Virus record (IMG/VR): IMGVR_UViG_3300005405_000008
Span: 1-64,000 of that record
Reading direction: 5' to 3' (one strand)
Length of the DNA: 64,000 nucleotides
Source of the DNA: an uncultured virus (IMG/VR IMGVR_UViG_3300005405_000008)
Lineage: Duplodnaviria > Heunggongvirae > Uroviricota > Caudoviricetes
This document shows, piece by piece, positions 4,913 to 58,661 of the stretch. The position numbers and the translations under genes were made by a program. The notes below the pieces were generated by a model. That model saw only the letters and a program-made list of their open reading frames with translations. It made no database searches and was not told the origin of the DNA. How positions within the stretch are numbered: position 1 is the first letter of the stretch; each line of letters starts with the position of its first letter.

Positions 4913-5107
4913 AATTTTTATCACTTCTTTCTTTTTTATTAGCAATTTTAAGTTCGAGATAATACTGCGATATTATTTTTGAACATATAAAACTACTTAG
5001 AGAAGAGTCAGAACATAATCCTAACCCATCTCTTCGCAGTTTTCTTACTAATAATAAGAATGAAAGAAGTGGTTAGAATAGTTTTTACTACTCTCTAAGT
5101 AGTTTTA
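4913..5107 (-). promoter_or_regulatory. Structured antisense-type leader of the rha gene (large variant)
   Basis: Closing stem UAAAACUACUUAGAG/CUCUAAGUAGUUUUA spans 4988-5107. Internal CACUUCUUUC (5062-5071) is exactly complementary to the RBS-region GAAAGAAGUG (4922-4931). Confidence 0.65.
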
Positions 5108-5164
5108 ATAAATAATTTTTATTTTGTTAATTGGCAATAGGAAAAGAGGAAGATAATCAATAAA

Positions 5165-8100
5165 TTAATTTCTTCCTCTGATGATCTGTAACTTCTCAAT
5201 ATATTTGACTGTATATTTAGCTGCTCTTTCAAGTTCACTATTTGGTATTTTCCCATCAGTTGCATTCACATTAAAATTCATATTAGGAATAGTTATATTC
5301 GATGATGATGATGTATTATTTGGAGTAAACTGTGGTGTAGAAAACGATGGCAATGATATAAGTGATGGAATTGTTTGGAGTAATGATGATAGGGAAATAT
5401 TTTTTAATATGTCAGAAACACCAACTCCATCTGCATATGAGGGAATAGATGATAATGTAGATGGGGTAGATTTGTTAAGTAATGCTTCTGTTTCGTTATG
5501 GGGGAGGATTTTTGTTCCTTTTTCTAAGTTCATTATTTCTGGGCCATTATTGCCACTAAGGAATGGTGGTCTATTTGGAGGAATTATTAATTCTGAACCT
5601 TTTTCTGATGTTTTTGCGAGTCCTCCAGGATGGTTGGGGGTGCCTGATGCGTATTGAGGAATACTACTTGAAGCAGATTTAATTTCATTAATGGTGCTGA
5701 TAATATTCTTAAATGCACTATCAATCTCTTTTGCCTTCTCAGTTAAATCTTTAGTAAATCCGTCAGAAAAGTTAGTCAAAGCATCATTTATGTCAGTAAT
5801 ATTACCTTCTAAAATTGCTTTTCTTAAATCTGCCCAATATGTCTCATCTGCCATTCTTGCATTATAATTATCTTCTGCTAATTGCTTCTCTGCTTCCATT
5901 CTCTCTTTTTTGGCATTGTAAATAGAATTTTCAGCTTCTTTTTCTGCTTCAAGGTTCTTTTTTATTGCTTCGAGAGAATCCTGAAGATTTTGTTTGCGAA
6001 GATCATTGGTGTGAGTTTGTTGCATATCTTCAATTGAACTATTCTTCTCTGCAATTTGTTTCTGGAGTTCGGCGAGTCTAGCGCGACCTTCTGGTGATGT
6101 ATCATTTTGTATCGCATTGATTTGATTCTGAATATCCTGTCTTTCAGATTGTGCAGTATTGAGGTTCTTATTATAGTTTTGAGCATCTGCAAGACGATCT
6201 ATTGCCTCTATTTGTGCATTTATGGATTCCTCTGCTGCTTTTTCTTCTTTTTCGAGATTATCAAGTATTTTCTGATGAGATTTTTCTAATTTGTCAACTT
6301 TTTCTTGATATGCTTTATCATCTAATTCTTTCTGATTTTGATAAAATTCTTTTAATGCAGAGATTGCTTCGTCTGCTTGGGAATTTTGAAACTCTTGGAG
6401 AGATTGGTTAAGTTTAACTTGTGCTGATCTTGTGTCTAATATAGCTTGAGTATTTTCATTTATTGCTTTCTTAATTGTGGATAATTTTGATAGCTCATCC
6501 TGCATTAGTTTTTGCGCTTCAGCAGATGAGGAATTAAATGTGTCGTAATATTGCTTCGTCGCTTCACCGTTTTCGTCAATATAATTCCAGGCTCCAACTT
6601 TATCTCCTTCAGACATTAATTTATAATTGGCTTGTTGAAGTTGATTTATTTCATCTGTTTGTCCTTTAAGGAGTTCAGTTGTTTTTTGGAGTTGAAGGGA
6701 GTAGTTTTTGTTAGAAGTGGCAAGGTCTAGGTCTGCTTGGATTGCTTTGTTTTTTTCAGCTGTAAGTTTAGATTCTAAATTTATTTCGTTTATGATGGCT
6801 TGAATTGGATCTGTGTAGGAGGGTTCTTGAGGTTTCTTTTCTTTCTCTTTACCACCAGACATACCGATGCCTGAGAAATCTATGCTTGAAGTACCTTTCA
6901 TAGCAATATCATCCAATGCAGACGAAAAAGCACTCATTTGATTTATATAATCTTTTAATCCATCTGTATTAGCTTTCATTTCAGGAGATATGCCATATCC
7001 ATTACCACTTGCCCTACCATTAGCGTCAACAAGAGTCCTTCCAGCATCCAAAGGTTGTGCTACCAATTTCCCAGCTTTATAAAAATTAGACCATTCTGAA
7101 GCTAATTTTTGTATTAATGCTTGATCTACTTTAAATTTTGCATCAGCAAGTGATTTGAAGTTTTCAAGATCCTTGTTGTATCCTAAATTTAAACCTTTAA
7201 CTAAAGAATTTACTCCTTCAATATTCTTTTGATAATACTCGGCACTATCCATAAGCATATTAGCATAAGCTTGGCGAGACGCTTCTTGTTCTTGATGAAT
7301 AATATTAGTAAGTTCTTGATGTAATCCTTTCTCATCTCCAAGAAGAGGAATAAGTTCTTTATGTTTTTCTGAAAGTTTAATTATTGTATCAATATTAAAC
7401 TTCCCATTATCGTTATATTCTTTTAATGCTGTTTGGATTTCTGAAATAGAAGACGATGCATCTGATAAAGTTTTTTGGAGAGTGGTGAGGGAAGATGAGA
7501 AATCATTTATTTTTTCTTTTGCTAGTTGAACATTTGGAATATTAAACATGTCTTTTAAAATTTTATTTGTTTCTTCAGCACTAATTCCTAATGCTATTAA
7601 ATATGGAGACATGTCAGAAATTGCTTTTTCATAAGTATTTCCAATTATATCTTTATTTGCTCCACTTTTTGCTAATTCTTCTAAAACTATTTTTGCTTTA
7701 TTTAATTCAGAAGAAAAATCAGAACTTTTAAGACCGTCAAATATTTTAGTGAATTCTTCCCCTGTGATTTTACTTTCATCTTTAAGCTTACTCAAATCAT
7801 AAATTAGTTTAGTTACTGCTTCTTTGCCTAGTGATTTAGCAGAATCGCTACTTTGTAAAAAAGCTTCAGCCAAAATAGATAAATCTTTTCTACTTTCAAG
7901 AACTTTTGCGCTAAGTGTAGATAATTCATCTTTAATGCCTTTTAAATTATTCTTAGCAATTTCTAGTGAATTATTACCATACTCATCAATTTTATTTTGA
8001 CTTCCGCTGTTTATATCTTCAATTGTTTTTAAATATTCGTCTTTATGTTTTATTAATAAGTCTAGTCTTTCTTGGTCTTTTTGTAATTGCGAGAAATCAT

Positions 8101-8966
8101 TTTTCCCATCAGTAGTAAAAGTTATAGCCATTTGTTCTTGTTTAACTTTTAATAATTCTTCGTTGTCTTTAATTGCTTGTTGAATTGATTCAGAAGACCC
8201 AAGGATTGCTTTTCCCTCTGCATCATAACCATCAATTAAATCAGGAAATTGTGTTATTAATCGAGATCGAATTTCTTCTAATTTTGTCTCCTCGTTTATT
8301 GTACGAGATGATATTGCAGATAAAGATTCATATTGACTTGCTAGATTTTTTGCTTCCGATGTTTGTTGTTTAAGTGAATTAATACTTCTATTTAATTCAT
8401 CGAATACTTCTTTTTGTTTTTGAGCAGACCTTTCAGCTCTTGCCCCCATAAAATCAAATGCCACTATGACAGCAGTAACAGCACCTACAACTAAACCAAT
8501 TGGATTAGCAAGCATAGTAGCCCATAAACCTTTAATTGCAAAATTTAATGCAGTAGTTGTGCCCATCAATCCGATTTGAGCAAAAGACATTCCAGCCAAT
8601 CTAGCTTGTGTTTGAACTAAGCTTGAATTTAATAATATAGTAGATAAAGAAAAATCCTTTAAAAACTTTAAAAAAACAGCACCTTTATTTACCGCAAGCA
8701 AAGTAAATACCAATCCCAAAATAGTTCTAAGATTACCAAAGTTATTAATTAATAGAGTTATACCACCAATCATACTTTTCACTAAACCAGTATCTATCGT
8801 GTTATTCCAAAAATTATTTATTGCATTTCTTAGCTGATTAATTTTGGTTTCCCAACTGCCCATTCTTACTTCATTTTCTGCCATCGCCGATCCACTAGCA
8901 TTAGAATAATCTTCAAGCATACTTTTGTACATGTCAAAATTTTCAACTAAGGCTACTAATTGATTG
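5165..8966 (-). CDS. Tail tape measure protein, exon 2
   Basis: Long helical ORF with NPIGLVVGAVTAVIVA and YASGT...SEKGSELI motifs. The frame stays open upstream of the annotated ATG (NQLVALVENFDMYKSM) up to the intron 3' end. Confidence 0.9.
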
Positions 8967-10269
8967 CTTTGTATTCAACAAGGTTCGTTAATCCTTGCCA
9001 GTTCTCAATTAAACAAATTATAATTTGTTTAATATGAACTTCTTATATTTTCATACAAGAATAGACTATATCACCATCCTACTAAGGATGTCTCCCATTT
9101 CCACTCACTTGAGTGTACGGCTTTCGCCTAGTCGTTGAACCTTACCTTACGGTCTTGGTTGCTGATTGCCAATTGTTATAGCACTTAGGATTTAACCATA
9201 TGCCATCTGATTAATTTTTTCTACTTTCGTCACCATCACGCTTATAATCAATAGATTTTGTAGATTCTCTTATCTTATTCTTACTCATAATTTATTTTGA
9301 ACTCATGCCATTGTTCTATTGTATTATTACCAAACCCATACAAAGAATGAAATTTATTGTGTATTTCTTTCTTTAAGCAAACACCCAAAGGATATTTGTT
9401 TTGAAATTCCCTAAAGACATATAAAATAGACGATAATTCATCATCAGAATAATCGTCTATTTTGCCTTTTATTTCAATATGTAAATGTAATAATACATCA
9501 TTAAGGATTAAATTCAATCCATATGTGTGATGTATATCATCAAATCTTTCTCCAGTAATTACACATTTATAATTGCAATTCTGCATTGATTTCTTTTTCC
9601 ATTCTGCATTATTGCGTCTTACAAATTCTGAAAGATTTTCATATGAACTTTCTTCTGCTTGCCTTAATAATCCTAATTGACATCGCTTGTCGCATATAGC
9701 ATGAGCTTTTCTACTTATAATTACCCCAATTTCTTCATCTGTCATCTCTTTCCAATTATTTTTTATAAAATCTATATCTTCTATTGTGAACCATAAGTTT
9801 AGAGACACTATGTTTTTTATATTTAGTTCACATGCTTTCATAGTAATAGTTTTTATATTTCTATTTGGAAGAAATTCTAACATTTCAATTGGAGTTTTAA
9901 TAGGATAATATTTTTTCATTATGTCAATATCATCTTCAGACCAGTAATTCCTACTTGATATTTTTAATTTACTAGCTTTCGATACAATTGCACTATAAGA
10001 AAATTTATTATCTAATAAATCACAAATATTATTTACATTACCGAATGTATAATTACTCTTTAGAATCTTGATATCATTATCAGTCCATCTTTGTATAAAA
10101 ATCATCTCCTTAAAAATGTTTTATACAAAAACTATTGATTATTACGTTGTGGTTTAATCAGCTTTATGGGTTTCCAGCAGTTAAAGAGATTTTGGATAGA
10201 TAAATTACATATCTATCGCTCTATGCACATTTCTGTACAGAGGAGGCTGTCAACAATATTTGTTCGTTA
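8967..10269 (-). mobile_element. Group I self-splicing intron in the tape-measure gene, carrying an HNH ORF
   Basis: Core elements are in order: P AACUGCUGGAAA (10171-10182), Q AAUCAGCAACC (9157-9167), R GUUCAACGACUA (9129-9140) and S GUGAUAUAGUCU (9063-9074). There is a P2 hairpin with a GAAA loop and a 3' end ...GAAUACAAAG. The 5' boundary is uncertain by about 1 nt. Confidence 0.92.
9281..10105 (-). CDS. Intron-encoded HNH-type homing endonuclease with N-terminal Myb-like W[ST]xxD repeats
   Basis: CVITGERFDDIHH...GVCLKKEIHNKFHSLYG; repeats WTDNDIKIL, WSEDDIDIM, FTIEDIDFI. Confidence 0.8.
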   Translation of the reverse strand: MIFIQRWTDNDIKILKSNYTFGNVNNICDLLDNKFSYSAIVSKASKLKISSRNYWSEDDIDIMKKYYPIKTPIEMLEFLPNRNIKTITMKACELNIKNIVSLNLWFTIEDIDFIKNNWKEMTDEEIGVIISRKAHAICDKRCQLGLLRQAEESSYENLSEFVRRNNAEWKKKSMQNCNYKCVITGERFDDIHHTYGLNLILNDVLLHLHIEIKGKIDDYSDDELSSILYVFREFQNKYPLGVCLKKEIHNKFHSLYGFGNNTIEQWHEFKINYE

Positions 10270-12146
10270 CCTCTATATTTTCCACCAAGAGCCTCAATAA
10301 TGGGGGCAGTCTGCATAGAGCTAAGTGACCCCCAAATATCCGATAAATTTTGAAGCACGTCCATGGGATTTCTAAGCTCTTCAATTCCATTTCGCATTTC
10401 ATGAACTTTAATTCCAACACTGTTTAACGCCGCTGCCGATTTTGAAAGTGCTTCATCATCTATTATTTCTCCGTCTTCAGTTTCTCCTTTTATTTGCCTA
10501 ATGTTCATCAGAATTCCACGAAATGCCCGTCCAGCTTCATTTCCAGACCGTTGTGTAACTGCTGTCATAACCCCAATGGCAGCAGAAAGCTCATTAACCC
10601 CAACTGAAGCATTTGAGGCTATAGATCCCGCAACTGTGATTCCTTCGCTTATTTTAGAAATTGATGTTGCATATTTGTTGTCAATAATATTTGCACCATC
10701 AAGAACTTTCATCAATTCTTCTTGACTACCTTTGTATTTATAAGCAGCATCAGTAGCAAGCAAAAATCCATTAGCTTGTTCTGCGGTAAGTTCACCAACG
10801 TTTTGAGACAACAGAGAAACTTTTGCTAAATCTTCTGCTTTTCCTTCATATCCTGCACGACTAAATTCACCAATTGATTTTAAATAATCTTGTGCAGTTC
10901 TTCCAAAAGCATTAGCAGCTTCAAAAGCACTATTTTTTAAATTATCCATAGCTTCAGCACTAAGATTAGTTACTTTTGCAATATTTACCATTAAACTATC
11001 TAATTCTTTTAATGTAACCAGTCCGGCCTGTAGTGACCTAAGAGGCGCGTATAGGGCTGTCGCTACTGCCGCCCAAGCGATCATCTTAACAAAATTTTTA
11101 CTGAGTGTCGTTAAAAAACTATCGGCAGCTCCATTTATTCTTGTAATTTCATTTGTTGCGGCTCTAACTGATGTAGTTAATTGGGCAAATTGTAAATTTA
11201 ATTCTTTTGCTGACTTTCCTCCAACAGTCCCAAATTTCGCAACTGCCGATATCAAATTATTCATTTCTGCTTGAATTTCAGGTCTCGCAAAGACAGTTTC
11301 TTTCCCGACTTGTAAGCTTGCTAATCTATTTGCCATATTTGCTTGGTACAATGAAATATCATTAGTACTTAAACTTCTAGTATTTGTTGTTGCAGTTATA
11401 CGTTGTAAATCTTTATATCTAGCAATTTCAATTTCTAAATTACTTATATTTTGAATTATTCCTCGTCTTTGCTCATTAGATAGATTTATACTGCCATTTC
11501 TTACTTGATTTATGGTCGATAATATTTTATCATATTGTGTATTTAAATTTGATAAATTAATACTATCAGTTATCCCAGTAGCAGGTGAAGTAAATCCTGC
11601 CTTTAATTTAGTAATTTTATTTTCATACAATTGTAACTTATCAAGATTTTTTTGTATATTTGAATTAGTTTTTGCCATATCATCTGAGTAATTAAAACCA
11701 GTAGTGCCAAAAGTTTTAATTTTAGTTAATTCACCATTGACTTTTTTTTGAGCTTCTGACCATCCCATCGTTTCTTTAATAGTTTGCCCAAGTTCTTGAT
11801 TATAATAAGTCAATGTAGCAGATGTCATTTGGCCTTTACTATTTGTGTTTATATTTACTTTAGCTAATTCATCAACATTTTTTCTAATTTCTCTAATACG
11901 ACTTGAAATTTGATTAAATGCTTGATTTTCTACAGTCGTATTAATAAATTGAGAACTTTTCATGTTTGTTTGGGTTTTGATTTTTTCATTTATTTTTTTA
12001 GTAATTACGTCAATACTTGATGCATCAACATTTAATTTTACTGAAATTACTGATTTTATCTTCGCGTTTAGAGAATTTATTTGTGCATCTATTTCTGATG
12101 GCAATGTTGATATTTTTGCTTTAATTAATATATTTAAATCATCCAA
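10270..12146 (-). CDS. Tail tape measure protein, exon 1 (TP901-type core)
   Basis: ELDSLMVNIAKVT...EFSRAGY...TQRSGNEAGRAFRGILMNI; the TMP-like sequence ends at LGGKYRG, where the intron starts. Confidence 0.9.
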
Positions 12147-12187: not shown

Positions 12188-12363
12188 CCGTTACTGAAAA
12201 CTTATAAGAAATTATAAAATAAATACATAATTTATAACTTTATGTTTCATTCCTTATTCATCGTGTTCTTTTTCATATTATTTCTAATACTACTAAAGTT
12301 TTTTAACACTCTAAAGGCTTAAATTCCCCACTAACGCATGGGTACATAATATCTATAATTGCA
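12188..12363 (-). ncRNA. Putative omega-RNA / right end of an IS607-like TnpB element
   Basis: Non-coding tract after the tnpB stop (...GUACCCAUGCGUUAGUGGGGAAUUUAAGCC...) ending in AAGUUUUCAGUAACGG. A GG terminus is characteristic of IS607-family ends. Confidence 0.55.
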
Positions 12364-13554
12364 TTAACTAACTTTAAATATCTTATAATTTTCAGTATCT
12401 CTTAGATTTAATGACGCATTTAAATCTCTATCTAAAACACTACCACAACCAGTACAAATCCATTCTCTATCATTAAGAGTTAATAACTTATTCACATTGC
12501 CACATTCGTGACATGTCTTAGAACTTGGATACCATCTATCAGCAATTCTAATCTCAATATGATTCCATAATCCCTTGTATTTTAATTGTCTTCCAAATTC
12601 ATAGAGACTTTGTTGCTGAATTGCTTTAGATAAATGTTTGTTTTTCATCATACCTGAAATATTTAAATCTTCAATAGTAATATAACTTGGTTTTCGACAT
12701 ACTATCTCAGAAGTTGTTTGTTGAATATAATTCTTTCTAACACCATTTAATTTATGTTGAACTGATTTTATCTTAAGTTCTAATTTAAGAATATTTTTAG
12801 TTTTAATATATTTTAAACCATCAAGATTAGACTCATATTTTCTAGAAACCTGTCTCTGTAATCGTTTCTTTTGCTTTTCTAATCGTTTCATCTTTTTGGT
12901 CTTATTGATATTACCATAAGTTTTACCATTTGAACATATCGCTAAATCTTTAATTCCTAAATCAATTCCAATTCCTTCATTTAAAGGAGTATCAAGACTA
13001 TCAGGATATTCTATACTAATGCTAATAAACCAATTTAATCCATTATACGATATTCTAGGATTCATATATTTAATACCCTTGCCGAACGGCACTCTATTGT
13101 GCTCAGCTAATTTTACCCAATTCAATTGTTGCTTGTTCTTCTTTTTGCTTTTAGTAAAACCTTCAAATTTAACATGAGTAGAAGTAAATTGAATATTCCC
13201 GTTATCCTGATAAAATTTAGGAGATGATTTCTTTTTAGTTTTAAATTGAGGAAATTTAGCTTGCCCTTTAAAAAATCGCTGATAAGCAATACAAGCGTCT
13301 TTAATTGCCTGTTTTGGAACATTGTTAGAAACACTATTCAACCAACTAAACTCATCTGTTTTCTTCAATTGAGTCAATTCTTTTCTTAAATCATTATCTG
13401 AAATAAATTTACCACATGAAGCATAGTTTTCTTTTTCTCTACCTAATGCCCAATTAAATGCCCATCTTGCAGTTCCAGCATTTTGAAACATTAATGTGTT
13501 TTGTTTATTATTCGGTACAAGCATTATCTTGATTCCTTTGATCAATTTCCTCAT
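12364..13554 (-). CDS. tnpB: RNA-guided endonuclease TnpB (IS607/IS605 OrfB), no tnpA
   Basis: HTH_OrfB N-terminus (AGTARWAFNWAL), RuvC motifs GIDLG / IEDL / DRDLNAS, and Zn finger SSKTCHECG...CTGCG. Confidence 0.93.
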   Translation of the reverse strand: MRKLIKGIKIMLVPNNKQNTLMFQNAGTARWAFNWALGREKENYASCGKFISDNDLRKELTQLKKTDEFSWLNSVSNNVPKQAIKDACIAYQRFFKGQAKFPQFKTKKKSSPKFYQDNGNIQFTSTHVKFEGFTKSKKKNKQQLNWVKLAEHNRVPFGKGIKYMNPRISYNGLNWFISISIEYPDSLDTPLNEGIGIDLGIKDLAICSNGKTYGNINKTKKMKRLEKQKKRLQRQVSRKYESNLDGLKYIKTKNILKLELKIKSVQHKLNGVRKNYIQQTTSEIVCRKPSYITIEDLNISGMMKNKHLSKAIQQQSLYEFGRQLKYKGLWNHIEIRIADRWYPSSKTCHECGNVNKLLTLNDREWICTGCGSVLDRDLNASLNLRDTENYKIFKVS

Positions 13555-17112: not shown

Positions 17113-17252
17113 ATAATTCCAGCACTCCTTCAAATTTTATATTCTTACTCATTACTAAACCCACACTCCAAACAATTCCATATAAAAAGGCAACAAAAAA
17201 AAGAAGGGAGGAGTGTATTCCCTTCTACTGCATTGCAATTGCAGATTGTTGC
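17113..17252 (-). promoter_or_regulatory. Three-way-junction antisense leader
   Basis: P1 GCAACAA/UUGUUGC; P2 CUGCA-AUUGCAA-UGCAG; P3 AGAAGGGA-AUACACUCC-UCCCUUCU. The P3 loop is complementary to GGAGUGU (17163-17169) and to the SD GGAGUG (17123-17128). Confidence 0.7.
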
Positions 17253-18032: not shown

Positions 18033-19726
18033 CTGAAACTCCCACGCCTAAAGGCATGGGGTTCTTATGTACTAAATAATTTTCTTTAATACTCTCATTT
18101 ACAGGCATTACATTTCATCTGTATTTTACAACATATAAACACTAATCATTTTCCATAAGAATTTCACTATCAATCAACCCATTGGTCAAATTAACGATAG
18201 CATACGGCTCGTTTCTAAACCGTTATTTAATTGTTAGATTACATTTCTTAATGCTTTACTTAAATCCAAACTTCTTAATCTTTCAACCTCAATATCGTGC
18301 AACACTTTAAACTCATTAAACTTCTCAAAACACGAATCTCTATTAATTGTTTCCATATCATTATTCACACTCATTATCAGAAATGCTGAATATAAATCCC
18401 TTTGAATCTTAAATTCACTAAAATCATTCCATCTTTCTGACAAGTCCTTTTTGACATAAACATCATCAATATGATTATATTGACTTGCTTTAATTTTTAC
18501 TGTATCAATTTTATACAATTGGGTGTCATTCCATTTAAGTTTATTGTCCAAGATTGTTAAGAACATTGAAGGTGCTTTATTCGCTAATGATTTACCAAAT
18601 CTCTTCTTCTTATTAAACTTTCCATTTTTCTTATTAGTAGTTTTTTTACTTCTTTTCTGCAATCCAGAATAACTCATATTTTCAACATAGAATTTATCGC
18701 CTAAATTAATGATCTCATTTGCTAAAATATTGTGAGACTGCTTTCTAAGTGCAGATTGTTTCCTAAATAATTCTTTTCTAGCGTTCTTAATTTTAATGTA
18801 ATGGTTACTATAAACCCATTTATCTTTATTGCCTTTAATTATAGTACCATTATCATTGAATTTATTAAGATTTGTTGCTCTTCTCGATCTGTCCATTTTA
18901 CGCTGGAGTAATTTAACTTCTCTATCAATTTTATTGATGTTTGGTGCTAGTTCTAGAAGTTTGACTTGATATTGACTACTATAAGCAATTGTTTGCGTTC
19001 CAATATCAATTCCTACATTACCCTTGCCTATACTCCCTTTAATTTCACCTTGTTTAGTTATCTTCATTGGAGGAATACCATCTAAAATCAACTGAATATA
19101 ATAATGATTTTTCCCTTTTATCATTTTACGTACAATACGACAATACTTTATTTTATTTTCTAAAGACATTTTAGCATAAGTATCATTCTTTTTAATTACT
19201 ACAGATATTTTTAATCCATTCCACAATAGCACATTGTCTATAAATCTTATTCCAGTACCATTTGATTTTCCTTCTAAAGAATCTAAATCATTATAAGATT
19301 TATAACCAACTTTTTTAGCTGTATGAAACATTAAGCCTTGAAATGCCGAGAAACATCTTGTAGCTACTTTTTGCGAAGTAAATGCATCAATGTTTTTCTT
19401 GTATTTATGTTGCATAGGTTTAACAAAATCATGTAGTGAATATTCTGTCAAACCGTATTTGTTGTTTAATGCTTGAAACTGCTTATTCCGTTCTTTACCT
19501 TTTGTCATTTTACAAACTTTTTGGTACTCTTTTGATTGTCTTAATGTATTGTAACGCTTATATAATTCATTTAAACAAGCATTATACATTTTTCTCCCAA
19601 TTTCAAAACGCTTACTTAAAATATCTTCTTGATATGTTTCGGTTTTTAATGGTAGAGTTAAAACAAAGTTTGACATATATTCACCACCTTTCATTTAATT
19701 TGAGGGGAGAATAAACTCCCCATAAT
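18033..19726 (-). mobile_element. IS200/IS605-family (IS1341-like) tnpB-only element
   Basis: Preceded by TTGAT (19727-19731) and a GGGGAG/CTCCCC hairpin. The right end has hairpin CCCATGCCTTTAGGCGTGGG followed by AGTTTCAG (TCAG terminus at 18033). Confidence 0.7.
18234..19676 (-). CDS. tnpB: TnpB, long Firmicutes subtype without a Cys Zn finger
   Basis: RuvC I GIDIG, RuvC II VENMS, RuvC III QRDLYSA; KASQYNH replaces the CxxC finger. Confidence 0.85.
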   Translation of the reverse strand: MSNFVLTLPLKTETYQEDILSKRFEIGRKMYNACLNELYKRYNTLRQSKEYQKVCKMTKGKERNKQFQALNNKYGLTEYSLHDFVKPMQHKYKKNIDAFTSQKVATRCFSAFQGLMFHTAKKVGYKSYNDLDSLEGKSNGTGIRFIDNVLLWNGLKISVVIKKNDTYAKMSLENKIKYCRIVRKMIKGKNHYYIQLILDGIPPMKITKQGEIKGSIGKGNVGIDIGTQTIAYSSQYQVKLLELAPNINKIDREVKLLQRKMDRSRRATNLNKFNDNGTIIKGNKDKWVYSNHYIKIKNARKELFRKQSALRKQSHNILANEIINLGDKFYVENMSYSGLQKRSKKTTNKKNGKFNKKKRFGKSLANKAPSMFLTILDNKLKWNDTQLYKIDTVKIKASQYNHIDDVYVKKDLSERWNDFSEFKIQRDLYSAFLIMSVNNDMETINRDSCFEKFNEFKVLHDIEVERLRSLDLSKALRNVI

Positions 19727-22723: not shown

Positions 22724-24697
22724 TTAAAATTTTACATATCTATTATTAGAGATTAAATCAATATTATAATCTTTTACATATTGCAACATCAAAGGTTTAC
22801 TCATAGAAATATTAAAAGTATTTGTCTTAATATCTAATAATTCTTTTATTTTTGCTTTACTTAATCCTTTTTCAGTAAAAATTTCATCGACAAATAATTT
22901 ATTTCTATAATTTTCGTCAAGTCTAAATTTCTCATAGAATTCAATTAATGTCTCAACAACATCCTTCTTGTTCTCTACTGTTTTTCCACTTTTTCTTGAC
23001 TTATATTCAATTCCCCAATTATACGTAATTTGAATATCTGGCATCGCTTGGGCAATGAGAGCATCTATCTCTTTATCACGATTTATGAAATAGGCGTGGG
23101 TCTCAGGAATTTCTCCATCTGCATAACCTCTACATTTGATTCTGTTTAAAGTTTGCACAACCATTGCAGAAATAGTAGACACTTTAACTTTCTCAAATTC
23201 TTTTTGTTTGTATTTTCTATTGCCTTTTATTGGAACAAGAGTAGTATCTAATGAATTAAATTTCTCTGCTGTTAATTCTTCTTCTTTTACAGAACTAGTG
23301 AAATACATTAAAGGATATATTGCATCTGGTAACAATTGAATCCCTAATACAAATATTTTGTCAAAATCACTCCATTTATTACTCCCTACTGTACGTCCAT
23401 AGTGGGTGACATCAATTTGGTCTAATTTTTCATATCCCTTTAATGCTTCAATAATCATTTTATCTCGTTCTTCACTATTAGTTACAATCAAAACTTTCTC
23501 TTCCCCAATAATCTTACTCTTAATATCTTCAATGATTGCATCTAACAATCCATCTTCTAATCCTTTTTTCATTGAAGCAGATGATCCGGTGACTCCATTA
23601 AATATATTTAGATGCATATTCTTATAAGATTTTATTTGCGGCAAATCTCTTACTTCTGAATTGCTATCAATTTCATATAGATAATTAATTCCTGATGTAG
23701 CATCTAATGTTACTTTATGGAAATATGGATTATTAATATCTATGTACTTGTAGGTGATGATTGATTTATACTTAATATCCTCATGAATATTTACATAACC
23801 ACCAGTTGCTAACATTGTTCTTATTGCCATATATGAGTCTTTGGCTTGTTTATCTTTACAAGAGAAAAATAACTCATCTAACCCATCTGGTACTTCGATA
23901 TTGTCGAACTCGCAAAAGAATACACTGTTCTTCTTCGTGTCATACGATTTCAAAAATTCTTTCTTGATTTTGGTCACGAATCCATTAAATCTATCATAAA
24001 TATCTTCGTTTCCCATATTCATGATTGCATTTTCCATATCAGAAATTGACTTCATTGTAACTGTCATAAATTGAACATTATTAATTGCTTCATCCACAAT
24101 TAATCTCTCCCTATAATATGTATTATATTTTCCACGCTTTGTATTAATTCTTTTATCAGACCATTCACATAGTTTATTTATATCATCTTTGTCAATAAGT
24201 TGTAAATATCCACTATGAGTTAATACAATTACTGGATATTCTTTTAGTTCATCATTAGAAATATCACTTCTTTTTCTATTGTTTAGTTTATCAAATCCAG
24301 AGTGATATGCATATGCTAAATCTAATTTTGCTTTCTTATTGATTTCTCTAACTGTTTCATTACAATCATCTTTTGTAAGTTTTAATATTATTGTTCCTGC
24401 GTATGGTTGTAATATTTTATTTCTTAACATATAGGAAATTCCTGCATTCATAGCAGTTGATTTACCACAACCCGTAGGAAAGTTAATAATTGCTTTCTTA
24501 TTAGGTAACGGGTAAAACATTATATAATAAAGTAATTGGCTTAATCCTTTGTAATATTCACTATCTTCTGGTACAATTACATTATATTCTGCCAAGTCCT
24601 TAATTGTCAAGTTTACTGCTTCTATTACATGATTTTTCTTTGTTTCAAGTTCCATTTGCTCTAGAAATTCTTTGTAATTAATCATTATTAATATCAT
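22724..24697 (-). CDS. SF2 helicase-like protein (possible origin-binding/replication protein)
   Basis: Walker A PTGCGKST, Walker B LIVDEA, motif III-like LDATS, and late QTLNRIKCR. Confidence 0.7.
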   Translation of the reverse strand: MILIMINYKEFLEQMELETKKNHVIEAVNLTIKDLAEYNVIVPEDSEYYKGLSQLLYYIMFYPLPNKKAIINFPTGCGKSTAMNAGISYMLRNKILQPYAGTIILKLTKDDCNETVREINKKAKLDLAYAYHSGFDKLNNRKRSDISNDELKEYPVIVLTHSGYLQLIDKDDINKLCEWSDKRINTKRGKYNTYYRERLIVDEAINNVQFMTVTMKSISDMENAIMNMGNEDIYDRFNGFVTKIKKEFLKSYDTKKNSVFFCEFDNIEVPDGLDELFFSCKDKQAKDSYMAIRTMLATGGYVNIHEDIKYKSIITYKYIDINNPYFHKVTLDATSGINYLYEIDSNSEVRDLPQIKSYKNMHLNIFNGVTGSSASMKKGLEDGLLDAIIEDIKSKIIGEEKVLIVTNSEERDKMIIEALKGYEKLDQIDVTHYGRTVGSNKWSDFDKIFVLGIQLLPDAIYPLMYFTSSVKEEELTAEKFNSLDTTLVPIKGNRKYKQKEFEKVKVSTISAMVVQTLNRIKCRGYADGEIPETHAYFINRDKEIDALIAQAMPDIQITYNWGIEYKSRKSGKTVENKKDVVETLIEFYEKFRLDENYRNKLFVDEIFTEKGLSKAKIKELLDIKTNTFNISMSKPLMLQYVKDYNIDLISNNRYVKF

Positions 24698-24795
24698 CTC
24701 TCTTTCTTATTTTACTCTCACTAAAAGATATTGACTAGCAGGATAGGGGAGAGTACCCTTTGATAATGGGTAATTAAGCCATTACTCCTGCTAGT
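24698..24795 (-). promoter_or_regulatory. Three-way-junction antisense leader
   Basis: P1 ACUAGCAGGA/UCCUGCUAGU; P2 UAAUGG-CUUAAUUAC-CCAUUA; P3 AGGG-UACUCUC-CCCU. The P3 loop is complementary to GAGAGUA (24713-24719) and to GAGAG just before the ATG. Confidence 0.7.
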
Positions 24796-27583: not shown

Positions 27584-27700
27584 CTCCAACAACCGCCTTT
27601 CATATTGTTTTATTAACCTTAAAATTTCTTCTCAAAAAGATAATAAACAGACAAACACTAAGGCGTTGTGTCTTTCGGGTAGCTCTCCCTAGTCTGTTTA
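27584..27700 (-). promoter_or_regulatory. Three-way-junction antisense leader
   Basis: P1 UAAACAGAC/GUCUGUUUA; P2 GGG-AGAGCUA-CCC; P3 GACAC-AACGCCUUA-GUGUU. The P3 loop is complementary to the SD-position AAGGCG (27594-27599). Confidence 0.7.
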
Positions 27701-31385: not shown

Positions 31386-31493
31386 TTTATTCTCCTTCCG
31401 TCATTGAGATTAAATATAATGGAAAAGAGACTATGTAACGGCATAGTCTCTCGTTTTACACTTAATAAGCGTCGACTCTTATTAAGTAACCAT
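31386..31493 (-). promoter_or_regulatory. Three-way-junction antisense leader
   Basis: AUGG/CCAU closing stem; P2 ACUUAAUAAG-AGUCGACG-CUUAUUAAGU; P3 GAGACUAUG-CCGUUA-CAUAGUCUC. The loop pairs with UGACGG, which abuts the SD AAGGAG. Confidence 0.75.
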
Positions 31494-31518
31494 ATTTAAT
31501 TTATTATTTTGTTAATTA

Positions 31519-35572: not shown

Positions 35573-35676
35573 TTATTTCTCCTTTTCTGTCAAAAAGTTT
35601 TACATGGAAAAGAGTCATGTGACAGCATGACTCTTGTTTTACGTCTAATAAATTTGCAACCTTATTAGACAACCAT
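35573..35676 (-). promoter_or_regulatory. Three-way-junction antisense leader
   Basis: AUGG/CCAU closing stem; P2 GUCUAAUAAG-GUUGCAAA-UUUAUUAGAC; P3 AAGAGUCAUG-CUGUCA-CAUGACUCUU. The loop pairs with UGACAG, which abuts the SD AAAAGGAG. Confidence 0.75.
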
Positions 35677-35688
35677 TTTTATTACAAA

Positions 35689-40362: not shown

Positions 40363-40469
40363 ATTATTTTCTCCTTCCCGAATCAGAGAATGGGAAAGAA
40401 GACTATATCTCGGATAATATAGTCTTCTTAATTACACTTATAAATTTGCGCAAATTTATAAGAAACCAT
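40363..40469 (-). promoter_or_regulatory. Three-way-junction antisense leader
   Basis: AUGG/CCAU closing stem; P2 CUUAUAAAUUUGCGCAAAUUUAUAAG; P3 AAGAAGACUAUAU-UAUCCGAG-AUAUAGUCUUCUU. Loop UCCGA pairs with UCGGG, which abuts the SD AAGGAG. Confidence 0.72.
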
Positions 40470-40494
40470 TTTTTAGTTTGTTAAATCTAAAATA

Positions 40495-50960: not shown

Positions 50961-50977
50961 ATAATATTCACCTTCCT

Positions 50978-54484: not shown

Positions 54485-54486
54485 AA

Positions 54487-55753: not shown

Positions 55754-57541
55754 CTATTGAGTTACTTCTTCCAAATATTTATATTTTCCATCATAATAAT
55801 TTTCAAGGAATTGATAAAATTGTTCAGGAGTATTGTTTCCATACCTAAACTCAACATGAAATTGGATATGATATTTTTTCTGCATGCATATCCCTAACGG
55901 GTAACGATTATGTATCTCCAAACATTTATCAATTAATTGTTGTAATTCTTCTTGTGTATATGAAGAGATATTCTCATATAATGGTATTCCAGTTTCATTT
56001 AAAGTATCTTGAACTATACTTCCAAAACTATATAAGTGATGAATATCATCAAAATTCTTTCCTGAAATAAAACATTTATAATTAGCATTATCCATACTAT
56101 CAAATTTCCACTGTTTTATATTTCTTCTTAATTCTTGTGACAAAGCACTAATTCCATTTTTATAATTAGGATTTAGATTGCCAAATCTTTGACTATCATA
56201 TTGAGGATTATCTTCGCCTTTCCATTTATCTAAAGATAATAATCTATCTGACGTAATTTTACCTAATTCAATAAACATTCTACCTAACGTTTCTTGTGCT
56301 TTATAAAGATTTAAATTATTTCCTTTGCACATTATTTGCCTATTTATTAGAAACGGAAAGTATTTATTTCTTATTTCATTGTTTGTCATACTAGAATAAT
56401 TATTTATTAATATAGTAGTTTCTTCTTGTGTCCAAATATGAATATTTGAATCAAATAAATATTCCTCTCCTTTACAAACTCGGCATACATTTCTTAAATT
56501 ATCTGTACATTTTTGGTCATCAGGAAAATATGCTCTATCTACTGGTAAGTATTCCTCACAACACTTACATAATTTATGTAATTTATTATCAATAATTTTA
56601 TACTGAATTTGCTTATAGTATTTTATATGATTATCTATTTTTCTTAAATCTAATTTTGTGCTAAGTGCATTACTGATTTTTCAGTTCTTATGGAAGTAAG
56701 TAAAGGTAATATATCTTTAATTGTTTTATGTTCATAATTTTCAATTATAATATCAATATCTTCTTGACTCCAAGGATCTGCTTTAAATTCTGGATAAAAG
56801 TCTTCGCCGTTGCATTCACGACAAATACCCCTATATCCATCTAAACATCTATCATCTACGTCATAAAAATCTCTATTGATAGCAAGTTCTCTGTTACAAA
56901 TTTTACACTTCTTATATCCATCTATAGAATCCTTATGTCTTCTATTAATTTGACATTTAATACAAATATTATAAAAACCGTCAGAAGATTTAACATAAGT
57001 ATTAAAATTAGTTTCATTTATTTCAAAAACTTCTTTACAATCTAAACATTTTTTAAATCCCTCTGGGATAATTTCTTTTTCTATTCCGAATATTTCTTTT
57101 CCACAAGCACATTCTTTACATTGACAAGATAAACTGTCTGGTCTATCTATGCTTCGAAAGAAATATTCAGTCGTTTTAGGAAATTCTCTTTTACATTTAC
57201 TACATGTTTTCGTTTCAGATTTAAATTTTTCTTCCCATTTTAATTTATTTATTTCAGAATTATATAAAGGTAAACAATCAATACAACAGTCTTTTTTTGA
57301 AGATCTCCTTGTATAATCACAATATAATACTGACTTTTCTTTTCCACAATAATCACATCTATACATAATCTTTACATTAGTTCCAGGTAAAAGATCTTCT
57401 ATTTTTACCTTTATTTTTGTACCCTTACGAATCACAAGTTTCTTTTTAATTTTTTTCTCTTGGTATTTCATAACCTAAATCTTCATAATGTTTAACATTT
57501 GATGGATGAAGTGTAACTTCTACTTCTTCGCTAACCAACAT
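55754..57541 (-). pseudogene. Large Zn-finger-repeat HNH endonuclease gene with two frameshifts
   Basis: ATG 57541 (MLVSEEVEV...GYEIPREKN, similar to the 40362 N-terminus). A +1 shift at ~57448-57456 leads into ORF 56650-57471. A -1 shift at CACAAAATTAG (~56650-56660) leads into an open frame continuous with 55754-56389 (FDDIHHLY...HIQFH). Confidence 0.8.
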
Positions 57542-57658
57542 CTCTAAATTCCTTCTTTCTGTACTTTTATTTTCTCTGTACTAATTTCCAAATAAAAAAA
57601 ATATAAAGAAGAGAGGCGTACAGAGATGGGTAGCTAACCCAAATTACCTCTCAACTTT
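57542..57658 (-). promoter_or_regulatory. Antisense-type leader with a duplicated target
   Basis: P1 GAGAGG/CCUCUC; P2 GGG-UUAGCUA-CCC; unpaired UCUCUGUAC is complementary to GUACAGAGA (57573-57581) and GUACAGA (57558-57564) near the SD. Confidence 0.68.
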
Positions 57659-57811
57659 GATCCACATATTTCAGTGAATAACAAATATCTCAAACATTTT
57701 GCTTGAGATATCGACTTATCCACAAAACATCCAAACAAAAACAACCATTCCATACGCACACAAAACGCCTGATTACTCAAGCGTCTTGTTATTTAGGGAT
57801 GTTATTTTATT

Positions 57812-58585
57812 TTATTTTATTTTATTATCTAATTTACAAAATTTATTACCATCTAACATTTTATTTCCATACTTAACTTCTAACTGATGCTTTATATAAT
57901 CTTGCTTAAATCCTAATGCCGTCAAAGCAGTAACTATTGTTTCTGCTTCATCAACTAATTTTAATTCTGCTTCTGTTAAATAATCTCTTGTAAGATCACC
58001 TTTTTTATTTATATTTCTACTTTCTCTTATTTGTTTTGCTGTCATATTAAACAAAATTTTATAGGTCATGTCTGTATAAGAAGCATAAGTAAAAGGTTTA
58101 GCACTAGGTATGTAAGTTTGGATACTAGAAGTCATTCTTTTTCTATCAACTTTACCAACTTCTCTTTGCAAATCCCATTTTTCTTGTTTTCCAAAAAATG
58201 CTTTAGATAATACATCTTTCGCATTTAATTGATAATCAATAAGTTTATCCATAACTTCAGGTTTATTTTGTTGCATATCTTTAGTAATAGATATTTTCGC
58301 TAACCATAAAGGTAAAAAATCTAACTCAAGACATAAAGACTGCTGATTACCACCTTTTGTAGGGAGGATTAAATTACGTCCCCCTTTAGAAAGGACAATA
58401 TCTTCTTGAATTTTCTTACGCTCATTTTTTAATTGTCCTTCTGATAACCCTATCCCATTACAAATCCAATTTACGCCCACATAACTTTTACCAGTGTCTT
58501 TCATTTTTACGACTATGATTAGATTGCTATTAAAATCCACTTCCATTAATTCCAGTTCCTTAAATTTTACTAATTGATTTGACAT
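57812..58585 (-). CDS. Antirepressor with a P22 Ant N-terminal-like domain
   Basis: YVGVNWICNGIGL...LPTKGGNQQSLCLELDFLPLWLAKI. Confidence 0.85.
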   Translation of the reverse strand: MSNQLVKFKELELMEVDFNSNLIIVVKMKDTGKSYVGVNWICNGIGLSEGQLKNERKKIQEDIVLSKGGRNLILPTKGGNQQSLCLELDFLPLWLAKISITKDMQQNKPEVMDKLIDYQLNAKDVLSKAFFGKQEKWDLQREVGKVDRKRMTSSIQTYIPSAKPFTYASYTDMTYKILFNMTAKQIRESRNINKKGDLTRDYLTEAELKLVDEAETIVTALTALGFKQDYIKHQLEVKYGNKMLDGNKFCKLDNKIK

Positions 58586-58661
58586 TGCAAACCTCCTTTA
58601 CCCATTTTTATAGTGGAAGTATGGGTAATACTTATCAGTGCTTTAATTTAAAGCAACCTAT
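58586..58661 (-). promoter_or_regulatory. Antisense-type leader
   Basis: P2 UGCUUU-AAAUU-AAAGCA; P3 AAGUAU-UACCC-AUACUU. UUACCCAU is complementary to AUGGGUAA (58598-58605), which abuts the SD GGAGG. Confidence 0.65.

What the first reader, a model, noticed from the sequence alone, without database searches (positions are those of the whole stretch)
4913..58661. Dispersed family of structured leader RNAs, each with its own loop-to-RBS seed, in front of nine inserted accessory genes
Seen in sequence: nine genes inserted into the virion operon each have a ~60-120-nt multi-stem element 15-80 nt upstream. The genes are rha (4912), six homing-endonuclease-like genes (17112, 27583, 31385, 35572, 40362, 57541), the helicase-like gene (24697) and the antirepressor (58585). 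The usual layout is a closing stem P1, a hairpin P2 and a hairpin P3, and the P3 loop is complementary to sequence at or next to the SD. Seed and target differ in every copy yet stay complementary: CACUUCUUUC/GAAAGAAGUG, ACACUCC/GGAGUGU, UACUCUC/GAGAGUA, CGCCUU/AAGGCG, CCGUUA/UGACGG, CUGUCA/UGACAG, UCCGA/UCGGG, UCUCUGUAC/GUACAGAGA and UUACCCAU/AUGGGUAA. Some copies have two target sites. I saw no such element before capsid, tail or terminase genes. Established knowledge: P1/P7 C4 RNA and P4 CI RNA are leader-encoded structured antisense RNAs that pair with duplicated downstream targets. Inference: this is a portable set of mutually orthogonal riboregulators that silences toxic nucleases and antirepressors riding on the late transcript. 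It could act in cis as a pseudoknot or in trans after processing.
Basis: partly seen in the sequence, partly recalled or inferred. Interest (0 to 1): 0.9.

Follow-up and report, generated by a model that had tools for sequence, protein, structure and literature searches.

The report
Structured RNA leaders of homing endonucleases
Three of the nine leaders belong to a conserved, so far uncatalogued three-stem RNA whose loop pairs with the ribosome-binding region of homing-endonuclease genes in uncultured phages, probably to keep these selfish nucleases quiet; one more is the known orphan motif int-alpA and the other five are a mixed bag.

Summary
All nine seed/target strings are present on the minus (coding) strand. 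They do not form one nine-member family.

- **New RNA family (3 leaders: 31385, 35572, 40362).** It has 25 distinct members, 22 of them in other uncultured AT-rich phage contigs. The fold is a three-way junction (P1, P2, P3). Covariation supports P2, P3 and a pseudoknot between the P3 loop and the sequence at or beside the Shine-Dalgarno site. No Rfam family matches it. Where the downstream gene can be named, it is a homing endonuclease. The ~110-nt leader is a module shared by unrelated endonuclease genes.
- **Rfam int-alpA (27583 leader).** It scores 39.5 bits against a cut-off of 35.8. Genuine proteobacterial int-alpA RNAs show the same loop-to-SD design, often with two target sites.
- **Same architecture, no relatives found (17112, 24697).**
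- **Weak or different (58585, 57541, rha).**

On its own, 5-7-nt seed/target complementarity is at chance level in this AT-rich DNA. Only loop-restricted and comparative tests lift it above chance.

The most likely function is repression of endonuclease translation in cis. A C4/CI-like trans-acting small RNA is the main rival. Orthogonality between copies is not shown.

The parts
31418..31494 (-). Three-way-junction leader RNA (AUGG subgroup) before the HNH homing endonuclease gene 30465-31385. P3-loop seed CCGUUA is at 31436-31441. Target UGACGG is at 31398-31403, directly 5' of AAGGAG.
   Evidence: R1 93.8 bits; MFE is a three-way junction, z -4.9; strings located; PHROG 559 HNH endonuclease 5e-53.
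35603..35677 (-). Three-way-junction leader RNA before the endonuclease-like gene 34100-35572. Seed CUGUCA is at 35620-35625. Target UGACAG is at 35587-35592, a few bases 5' of AAGGAG.
   Evidence: R1 85.7 bits; z -4.95; loop-to-target p 0.018-0.021; PHROG 4538 and 9084.
40389..40470 (-). Three-way-junction leader RNA before the endonuclease-like gene 39352-40362. Seed UCCGA(G) is at 40410-40414. Target U(U)CGGG is at 40377-40381, abutting AAGGAG.
   Evidence: R1 77.9 bits; z -5.7. The pairing is weak by itself (p 0.29). PHROG 12131/5104.
27630..27699 (-). int-alpA-type three-way junction before the truncated endonuclease ORF that starts at 27583. Seed CGCCUU is at 27660-27665. Target AAGGCG is at 27594-27599. 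A second, shorter complementary site UAAGG lies between them.
   Evidence: Rfam RF02996 39.5 bits against gathering score 35.8, E 1.2e-4. It was missed with default filters and by the first look of the genome search. z -2.25. ORF is 114 codons.
17189..17252 (-). Three-way junction before the HNH-repeat gene that starts at 17112. The P3 loop carries ACACUCC (17210-17216). Targets are GGAGUGU at 17163-17169 and AGGAGUG at 17123-17129 (the SD region). P3 is followed by U8 and so looks like a terminator.
   Evidence: MFE is a three-way junction, z -3.7; loop-to-target p 0.001-0.003; R3 only 18.1 bits, E 0.026 in a 5-kb search; no relatives found.
24735..24794 (-). Three-way junction before the helicase-like gene that starts at 24697. 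P3-loop seed UACUCUC is at 24749-24755. Target GAGAGUA is at 24713-24719. A second GAGAG lies next to the start codon.
   Evidence: MFE is a three-way junction, z -3.8, but P3 is absent from the centroid; p 0.058; no model or Rfam hit; no relatives.
57611..57652 (-). Two-stem element (P1 and P2, no P3) before the frameshifted endonuclease gene at 57541. The single-stranded seed UCUCUGUAC is at 57618-57626. Target GUACAGAGA is at 57573-57581. A second site GUACAGA lies just 5' of the SD. The P2 loop AGCUA resembles P2 of some int-alpA RNAs.
   Evidence: Fold z -2.6; 9-mer p 0.115 in the structure-blind test; no Rfam or model hit; ORF stops after 31 codons.
58610..58662 (-). Two hairpins before the P22-type antirepressor gene that starts at 58585. 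Seed UUACCCAU is at 58621-58628, spanning the P3 loop and part of its stem. Target AUGGGUAA is at 58598-58605, abutting AGGAGG. It shares GAUAGGU and CUGAUAAG with the GAUAG subgroup. This may be a divergent member, but that is not shown.
   Evidence: Fold z -1.3, and 23 of 200 shuffles fold as well; R3 10.7 bits, E 1.3; shared junction words read; Pfam P22_AR_N 4e-20.
4980..5106 (-). Long irregular hairpin before rha (start 4912). The 10-nt 'seed' CACUUCUUUC (5062-5071) lies in paired stem, not in a loop. Its complement GAAAGAAGUG (4922-4931) covers the SD-like stretch. The architecture differs from the others.
   Evidence: Fold z -5.4; 10-mer p 0.037; no model hit.

Best explanation
The leaders of 31385, 35572 and 40362 are copies of a conserved leader RNA carried by free-standing homing-endonuclease cassettes of a group of uncultured AT-rich phages.

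**Structure.** The RNA folds into a three-way junction.
- P1 is a short closing stem (AUGG/CCAU, or GAUAG/UUAU in the second subgroup).
- P2 is a 10-13-bp hairpin with a self-complementary apical loop.
- P3 is a 9-14-bp hairpin.
- The P3 loop base-pairs with 6-8 nt in the 3' tail. In the AUGG subgroup, which includes the window copies, this target lies directly 5' of the SD. In the GAUAG subgroup it is the SD itself, and a second SD-like site lies upstream.

**Proposed function.** This loop-tail pseudoknot (or kissing contact) hides or crowds the ribosome-binding site and keeps translation of the endonuclease low. That would apply to read-through from the virion operon and to the cassette's own promoter.

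**Other leaders.** The 27583 leader does the same job with the int-alpA fold. The 17112 and 24697 leaders probably work likewise.

**Shown:** the family, its fold, the loop-tail pairing, its place next to the SD, and its modular link with endonuclease genes.

**Inferred:** that pairing lowers translation, and that it acts in cis.
For: **Family and fold.**
- Models R1-R3 find the three window copies at 64-94 bits and 22 further distinct sequences in other contigs.
- On 20 distinct sequences, 96.3% of cells pair, against 33-54% when partners are slid. 21 of 23 pairs show changes on both sides, and 0 of 500 shuffles reach the score. This alignment was fitted to the model.
- Many G-U pairs, and much lower reverse-strand scores, point to the sense strand.

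**Pseudoknot.**
- On an unfitted MAFFT alignment of 10 AUGG-subgroup leaders, 83% of cells pair against 32-52% slid. 5 of 6 pairs are compensatory, and 1 of 500 shuffles reaches the score.
- Across 12 distinct loop classes, the own-tail duplex averages -6.96 kcal/mol against -3.87 for other members' tails. 0 of 100,000 permutations reach this.
- Examples of loop/target pairs: CCGUUA/UAACGG, CUGUCA/UGACAG, CCUAUA/UAUAGG, CCGAUUA/UAAUCGG, CUCUGAUU/AAUCAGAG, AUUGACC/GGUCAAU.
- The best targets end 4-16 nt before the start codon, at or beside the SD, in 17 of the 20 members scored. Three had their best hit further upstream, one of them through a mis-called start.

**Context.**
- 10 of 17 external partial ORFs hit endonuclease PHROGs 12131, 559 or 374, and 7 have no hit.
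- L125 and L079 share the element at 93% and the tail at 89%. Their upstream flank (65%) and ORF (64%) are at the unrelated baseline.

**Precedent.** RBS-sequestering RNA structures control T4-family endonuclease genes (PMC2988022, passages of section 12 read).
Against: - There are no expression or probing data. No RNA run is listed for this DNA.
- In the window copies the SD itself is not inside the pairing, so occlusion is indirect.
- The 40362 pairing is weak (p 0.29-0.57).
- Pyrimidine-rich loops cross-pair with any SD. Own-versus-other specificity is therefore partial: the own tail is strictly best in only 5 of 12 loop classes.
- P3 followed by a U-rich tract meets a simple terminator criterion in 15 of 20 members. 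Perfect or near-perfect TTGACA-17-TATAAT promoters sit just upstream in at least three members. Both facts fit a short independent RNA as well.
- The second, upstream target site has no role in a plain cis-repression model.
Confidence: 0.5

Rival explanations
1. The three-way junction is released as a small RNA of about 75-80 nt, either by termination at the P3/U tract or by processing. Like P1/P7 C4 or P4 CI RNA, it then pairs in trans with the SD-region sites of its own mRNA and of matching cassettes in co-infecting phages. This would give dosage control or cassette-specific 'immunity'.
For: - P3 plus the U tract is terminator-like in 15 of 20 members. It is the only terminator-like site called in L078 and L060.
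- Strong promoters lie 7-14 nt upstream of the element in L031/L084, L078 and L360.
- Two target sites are present in the GAUAG subgroup, in 17112, 24697, 27583 and 57541, and in 11 of 18 genuine int-alpA RNAs.
- The three copies in one genome carry three different seeds.
- The C4/CI mechanism itself is recalled knowledge and was not read here.
Against: - Rfam C4-type families give no hit at E up to 5-10.
- Only one loop (P3) is complementary. P2 loops give -0.9 to -3.4 kcal/mol, against -6 to -8.3 for P3 loops.
- U tracts are weak in 2 of the 3 window copies.
- A terminator inside the virion operon would be polar on downstream structural genes.
- There is no evidence of processing.
Confidence: 0.27
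2. The junction is a sensor (riboswitch-like, or a protein operator). A ligand, a phage factor or the endonuclease itself decides whether the P3 loop pairs with the decoy site or with the SD, switching translation on or off.
For: - P2 has a conserved apical loop (GUUCGAAA or GUUGCAAA). The junction strands are conserved (UU, GUAAAAC or CUGAYAAG, UU) while the stems vary.
- Two alternative targets are available for one loop.
Against: - No recognisable ligand pocket, and no Rfam riboswitch match.
- The window copies have only one target.
- The conserved P2 loop of the GAUAG subgroup is partly an artefact of searching with that word.
Confidence: 0.1
3. The elements are ordinary terminators or stabilising hairpins between cassettes, and the loop-target matches are chance products of AT-rich, purine-rich pre-start regions. 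This would also cover a same-strand ssDNA structure.
For: - In the structure-blind test, 6-7-nt complements are expected by chance in every leader.
- rha, 57541 and 58585 lack the stated layout or a significant fold.
- There is no comparative support for 17112, 24697, 57541 or 58585.
Against: - For the three-copy family, covariation of the loop-target helix excludes chance.
- Control intergenic regions lack strong loop-target duplexes: 1 of 14 at p<0.07, and the best energy is -5.0 against -7.5 to -11.
- A terminator needs neither P1 nor P2.
Confidence: 0.1

Closest known systems
int-alpA RNA motif (Rfam RF02996; Weinberg et al. 2017, function unknown)
   Same: - Three-way junction with a short J12, an A-rich J23, and a P3 loop complementary to SD-like sequence in the 3' tail.
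- In 18 genuine examples I read, 11 have two complementary sites, 3 have one, and 4 have none by a strict 5-nt rule.
- The 27583 leader passes the family's gathering score.
   Different: - The three-copy family and the other five leaders do not match the int-alpA model at E up to 10; 18 loci holding external members showed no int-alpA match at E up to 1.
- Their stems are 2-3 times longer and the junction words differ (UU/GUAAAAC/UU against UA/GAAAA/CU).
- The hosts are AT-rich phages and the downstream genes are homing endonucleases. The integrase/alpA neighbourhood of int-alpA in proteobacteria is recalled from its name and memory.
- The paper's main text does not mention the motif, and its supplement could not be read.
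C4 antisense RNA of P1/P7 and CI RNA of P4
   Same: - A leader-encoded structured RNA on the same transcript as its targets.
- Loop sequence complementary to the ribosome-binding region of the downstream gene.
- Duplicated target sites.
- Seed and target change together between relatives.
- One window copy precedes an antirepressor gene.
   Different: - No Rfam C4-type hit.
- Only one loop is complementary.
- Both targets lie downstream.
- No evidence of RNase P processing or of action in trans.
- The cargo is mainly homing endonucleases.
RBS-sequestering hairpins of T4-family homing endonuclease genes (I-TevI/II/III, segB, mobE)
   Same: An RNA structure in the leader of a homing endonuclease gene embedded in essential late operons is thought to block translation from read-through transcripts (PMC2988022, section 12 passages).
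   Different: - In T4 a simple local hairpin holds the SD in its stem, and a promoter inside the hairpin relieves the block.
- Here a conserved three-way junction uses a distant loop to pair beside or on the SD.
- I found no promoter between the loop and the target. This rests on reading; the promoter scan is uninformative, with 106 found against 115 in shuffles.

Membership tests
int-alpA (RF02996) | Bit score at or above Rfam's gathering score (35.8) with the family covariance model | tested here: met
   The 27583 leader scores 39.5 bits, E 1.2e-4 in the 64-kb scan. This holds only with relaxed filters: it was missed in gathering mode and by the genome search. The other eight leaders have no hit at E up to 10 in a 5-kb search.
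int-alpA (RF02996) | Junction consensus P1-UA-P2-GAAAA-P3-CU-P1', and a P3 loop CCUU facing AAGG in the tail | tested here: met
   The 27583 copy reads CUAG..CGAAAG..UUG. Its loop AACGCCUUAG faces UAAGG and AAGGCG. The three-copy family has UU/GUAAAAC/UU and does not meet the consensus.
int-alpA (RF02996) | Genomic context next to integrase/alpA genes in proteobacterial mobile elements (recalled from the motif's name) | tested here: not met
   Here it precedes a truncated PHROG 12131 endonuclease ORF in a 29% G+C phage record. I did not annotate the genes next to the genuine examples.
C4 / CI antisense RNAs (Rfam C4 and c4-type motifs) | Match to the Rfam covariance models | tested here: not met
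   No C4-type family appears among the matches at E up to 5 in the whole window, or at E up to 10 in the 18 intergenic loci.
C4 / CI antisense RNAs | Loop(s) complementary to the RBS region of the downstream gene on the same transcript, with duplicated targets | tested here: met
   P3 loop against tail. Two sites are seen in 17112, 24697, 27583, 57541 and the GAUAG subgroup. Only one loop takes part, whereas C4 has two.
C4 / CI antisense RNAs | Processing of the leader into a stable small RNA that acts in trans | not testable with these tools
   No RNA run holds this DNA.
T4-type endonuclease RBS hairpin | The SD lies inside the stem of a local hairpin immediately upstream of the start codon | tested here: not met
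   In the three family copies the SD is left outside P1-P3, and the complementary partner is a loop 30-40 nt upstream.
   Met by 31385, 35572 and 40362 (64-94 bits). Not met by 17112 (18.1 bits, E 0.026), 58585 (10.7 bits, E 1.3) or 27583 (17 bits, on a different register). 57541 reaches only 8.0 bits (E 5.3), rha has only a plus-strand hit of 8.8 bits (E 3.5), and 24697 has no hit.

The most novel reading that the evidence does not exclude
The phage family and int-alpA are two branches of one widespread device. It is a portable, seed-programmable leader RNA that mobile genes (homing endonucleases, antirepressors, integrase/alpA modules) carry with them.

- Its P3 loop can be re-written together with its one or two SD-side targets.
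- After termination or processing it also acts in trans, so each cassette represses only itself and its own kind, much as C4/CI immunity works.
- The self-complementary P2 loop would let two copies kiss.

If true, this would give the orphan motif int-alpA a function. It would also yield a natural set of compact, re-targetable translational repressors.
Probability: 0.2. Interest if true: 0.8.

Novelty: new variant of a known kind. Interest (0 to 1): 0.6.

Why it matters
Homing endonucleases that sit inside essential phage operons must be kept quiet. Outside the T4 family, how this is done is hardly known.

- This is a conserved, covariation-supported RNA module that appears to do so. It is not in Rfam 15, and my literature searches did not find it.
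- The module is exchanged between unrelated endonuclease genes.
- It uses a short loop-target helix that has been rewritten many times. That makes it directly testable with compensatory mutants and possibly useful as a small programmable repressor.
- The same loop-to-SD logic is visible in genuine int-alpA RNAs. This offers a concrete hypothesis for a motif that has had no function since 2017.

Tried and rejected
- **One family of nine:** rejected. Models R1, R2 and R3 find only the three copies, even with filters off on the leaders alone.
- **Known Rfam family for the three-copy element:** none in the window, in the leaders, or in 18 loci holding external members.
- **Ribozyme reading (hammerhead, twister, pistol, hatchet):** no Rfam hit on any leader. 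A pistol ribozyme lies elsewhere in the genome.
- **tRNA T-loop reading of the P2 loop GGUUCGAAAC:** dropped. The register that gives a T-loop breaks the rest of P2.
- **Structure-blind k-mer test:** seeds are not above chance.
- **Orthogonality:** the 9x9 swap matrix shows no clear diagonal.
- **Relatives of the phage, to see an empty insertion site:** the sheath protein and the 39352-40362 endonuclease found none in viral contigs. megablast of 14 kb against GenBank phages gave no match.
- **blastn of six leaders or elements against GenBank phages:** nothing meaningful.
- **Genome-contig scan with a 15-mer:** the hits are spread over unrelated phyla and look like chance. No member was recognised among them by my stem filter.
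- **Promoter scan:** uninformative in this AT-rich DNA, with 106 found against 115 in shuffles.
- **Expression:** no RNA holder is listed for the stretch.
- **Supplement of Weinberg et al. 2017,** which may describe int-alpA and its pseudoknot: unreadable here.
- **The genome search with RF02996 on the window's own record:** found nothing, because its first look passed no candidate.

Full report
**Setting.** The window is the first 64 kb of a 122-kb uncultured virus record. It has 29% G+C, and nearly all genes lie on the minus strand. Pfam and PHROG scans show a virion module: terminase, portal, sheath, tape measure, Dit and tail proteins. The module is peppered with mobile or accessory genes:
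- HNH, GIY-YIG and PHROG 12131-type homing endonucleases;
- two TnpB-like genes;
- Rha, Bro/Ant and P22-type antirepressor genes;
- an integrase.

Two of the 'endonuclease' ORFs are damaged. The one at 57541 stops after 31 codons and resumes in another frame. The one at 27583 has 114 codons.

**Checking the observation.** Folding the nine cores gives the following.
- 17112, 24697, 27583, 31385, 35572 and 40362 fold as a three-way junction (z -2.3 to -5.7).
- 57541 folds as two stems with a single-stranded seed.
- 58585 folds as two hairpins without a stable closing stem (z -1.3).
- rha folds as one long hairpin with the 'seed' inside a stem.

I tested the complementarity in two ways.
- *Structure-blind test.* I took the longest Watson-Crick complement between the upstream 130 nt and the last 40 nt, and shuffled the latter. 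The null already gives 6-7 nt. 31385 also does (p 0.029), but through an unrelated AT-rich 9-mer.
- *Loop-restricted test.* I compared hairpin loops of the MFE fold with positions -32..-1. For the nine leaders, 5 of 9 have p<0.07, with energies of -7.5 to -11 kcal/mol. For 14 other minus-strand intergenic regions, 1 of 14 has p<0.07 and the best energy is -5.0.

**One family or several.** The leaders of 31385, 35572 and 40362 are plainly homologous.
- A covariance model built from them plus one external copy (R1) finds exactly these three in all 122 kb.
- Broader models built after adding relatives (R2, R3) still find only these three, even with filters off on the leaders alone.
- With R3, 17112 reaches 18.1 bits (E 0.026 in 5 kb) and 58585 reaches 10.7 bits (E 1.3). 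57541 reaches 8.0 bits (E 5.3), rha has only a plus-strand hit of 8.8 bits (E 3.5), and 24697 gives nothing.
- Rfam gives one relevant hit. The 27583 leader is int-alpA (RF02996), at 39.5 bits against a gathering score of 35.8 and E 1.2e-4. It is seen only with relaxed filters (missed).
- No C4-type or other family matches any leader.

The nine leaders therefore split into four groups:
- three copies of one new family;
- one int-alpA;
- two unaffiliated three-way junctions with the same logic (17112 and 24697);
- three weak or different cases (58585, 57541, rha).

58585 shares the words GAUAGGU and CUGAUAAG with one subgroup of the new family. It may be a divergent member, but that is not shown.

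**The new family.**
- *How members were found.* Pattern scans with words from known members, an endonuclease-protein search and model searches recovered 22 further distinct sequences from other viral and metagenome contigs. That makes 25 with the window's three.
- *Subgroups.* There are two. One has P1 AUGG/CCAU and includes the window copies. The other has P1 GAUAG/UUAU.
- *Ascertainment bias.* Many members were found with a word from the P2 loop, so the conservation of that loop is partly built in.
- *Stem covariation.* On 20 distinct sequences aligned to the model, 96.3% of cells pair, against 33-54% when partners are slid. 21 of 23 pairs have changes on both sides, and 0 of 500 shuffles reach the score. 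That alignment is fitted to the structure.
- *Strand.* Frequent G-U pairs, and reverse-strand scores of only 15-20 bits, indicate that the sense strand folds.
- *Rfam.* No Rfam family matches 18 loci holding members.

**The loop-tail pairing.**
- *Examples.* Every member I read has 6-8 nt of the P3 loop complementary to the tail. Examples are CCGUUA/UGACGG or UAACGG, CUGUCA/UGACAG, CCUAUA/UAUAGG, CUGAUA/UGUCAG, CCGAUUA/UAAUCGG, CCGUUAA/UUAACGG, CUCUGAUU/AAUCAGAG, UCCUUUC/GAAAGGA, UCUCUC/GAGAG(A/G) and AUUGACC/GGUCAAU.
- *Covariation.* On an ordinary MAFFT alignment of ten AUGG-subgroup leaders, not fitted to any structure and with three or four rows out of register, the six proposed pairs are formed in 83% of cells against 32-52% slid. 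Five of the six show changes on both sides, and 1 of 500 shuffles reaches the covariation score.
- *Own tail versus others.* Across 12 distinct loop classes, the loop binds its own tail at -6.96 kcal/mol on average, against -3.87 for other members' tails. None of 100,000 permutations reaches this. The own tail is strictly best in only 5 of 12 rows, because related classes share targets and pyrimidine loops cross-pair with any SD.
- *Single members.* Per-member p values against shuffled tails range from 0.011 to 0.65.
- *Position of the target.* In the AUGG subgroup the target abuts the SD on its 5' side. In the GAUAG subgroup the loop is an anti-SD that matches the SD itself and a second SD-like site 15-25 nt upstream.

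**Context.**
- *Downstream genes.* Of 17 external partial ORFs, 10 hit endonuclease PHROGs (12131 seven times, 559 twice, 374 once) and 7 hit nothing. One of those seven, L058, holds the same element as L025, whose downstream ORF is a tblastn relative of the window's 30465-31385 endonuclease.
- *Modularity.* The leader is a discrete module. L125 and L079 share the element at 93% and the tail at 89%, but their upstream flanks (65%) and ORFs (64%) are at the level of unrelated sequence under that scoring. L125 and L128 share the ORF but not the upstream flank.
- *Promoters.* Perfect or near-perfect TTGACA-17-TATAAT promoters lie 7-14 nt upstream of the element in L031/L084, L078 and L360.
- *Terminator-like P3.* P3 followed by a U-rich tract meets a simple terminator rule in 15 of 20 members, including 1 of the 3 window copies.

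**Comparison with int-alpA.**
- I collected genuine int-alpA RNAs from 151 genomes of the class of a Methylobacter MAG. 13 genomes had a match, and 12 matched over the cut-off. I read 18 of them.
- Their P3 loop is a CCUU-type anti-SD.
- The tail has two complementary sites in 11 of 18, one in 3, and none in 4 by a strict 5-nt rule applied to MFE-trimmed loops. The second site lies in the purine-rich stretch just before a plausible start codon, though I did not annotate those genes.
- The swap test is not significant there (9,056 of 100,000 permutations), because all the loops are alike.
- The design is thus the same as in the phage family, even though the covariance models do not cross-detect.
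- Whether the two are homologous or convergent is open.
- The 2017 paper's main text does not mention the motif, and its supplement could not be read.

**Mechanism.**
- *Best-supported reading.* The leader represses translation in cis by pairing its P3 loop beside or on the SD. This is the principle known for T4-family endonuclease genes (PMC2988022, section 12 passages), implemented here through a conserved junction and a long-range loop contact.
- *Main rival.* A C4/CI-like small RNA that is terminated or processed after P3 and acts in trans. It is favoured by the promoter-element-terminator layout and by the duplicated targets. It is disfavoured by the absence of any C4-type match, by the single complementary loop, by the weak U tracts in the window copies, and by the polarity a terminator would impose inside a virion operon.
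- *Third reading.* A ligand- or protein-controlled switch between the two targets is possible.
- *Chance.* It is excluded for the three-copy family but not for 57541, 58585 and rha.
- *Data.* No expression data exist for this DNA.

**Novelty.**
- The principle (SD masking in endonuclease leaders; leader RNAs with loops against their own RBS) is known.
- One copy belongs to a described but functionless Rfam motif.
- The 25-member family, its covarying pseudoknot, its modular association with several endonuclease families, and the shared logic with int-alpA are not in Rfam 15.
- They were also not found by my searches for 'int-alpA', for homing endonuclease with hairpin/RBS terms, with pseudoknot/Shine-Dalgarno, and with RNA motif/covariation.
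- I file the finding as a new variant of a known kind.

Noticed in passing
window 9042-9254 (-), with 9281-10105 and 5165-8932 / 10221-12146: A group I intron core (Rfam RF00028, 46.6 bits, just under the gathering score of 50, E 8.5e-10) lies between an HNH-repeat endonuclease-like gene and the C-terminal tape-measure ORF. The N-terminal tape-measure part is a separate ORF upstream. The tape measure gene therefore looks split by an intron plus an endonuclease.
   Followed up: partly
window 12250-12317 (-) and 12364-13554 (-): A RAGATH-18 RNA (56.5 bits, over the cut-off) lies directly downstream of a TnpB-type gene inserted beside the tape-measure gene. This fits the reported TnpB guide RNAs derived from RAGATH-18 (abstract of PMC11061315 seen in the listing). 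A second TnpB-like ORF is at 18234-19694.
   Followed up: no
window 63122-63207 (-): A RAGATH-27-like element (59 bits, below the gathering score of 76.1, E 2e-5) lies in the 776-nt gap upstream of 62273-62455.
   Followed up: no
G000 91413-91486 (+), outside the window (L003 7813-7886): Pistol ribozyme, 47.1 bits against a gathering score of 34.5. A tRNA is also present at G000 64432-64503 (-).
   Followed up: no
P2 apical loops: window about 31470-31477, 35653-35660, 40445-40452; loci L018, L030, L025, L031: The centre of the P2 loop is a 6-nt palindrome in all 7 members that were found without using the loop as a search word (UUGCAA three times, UUCGAA twice, GUCGAC, UGCGCA). Simple hairpin formation does not require this. 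It suggests loop-loop kissing of two copies, or a DNA-level dimer site. The P2 loops of several int-alpA RNAs, and of 27583 and 57541, also carry AGCU or GAUC.
   Followed up: partly
window 57380-57541 (-) and 26016-27592 (-): The endonuclease gene behind the 57541 leader is broken: it stops after 31 codons and PHROG 12131 homology resumes in another frame. The 27583 ORF is only the N-terminal domain, and a separate GIY-YIG endonuclease ORF follows it.
   Followed up: partly
window 24581-24610 (-): A perfect TTGACA-18-TATAAT match lies about 90 nt inside the annotated helicase-like ORF (start 24697). The true start, or an internal promoter, may need a second look.
   Followed up: no
tails of int-alpA loci L274, L291, L276, L288, L275: In several genuine int-alpA RNAs a pyrimidine run (CCUU or CCCC) just after P1' could pair with the first target site. 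That gives two anti-SD and two SD-like segments, as in an attenuator.
   Followed up: no
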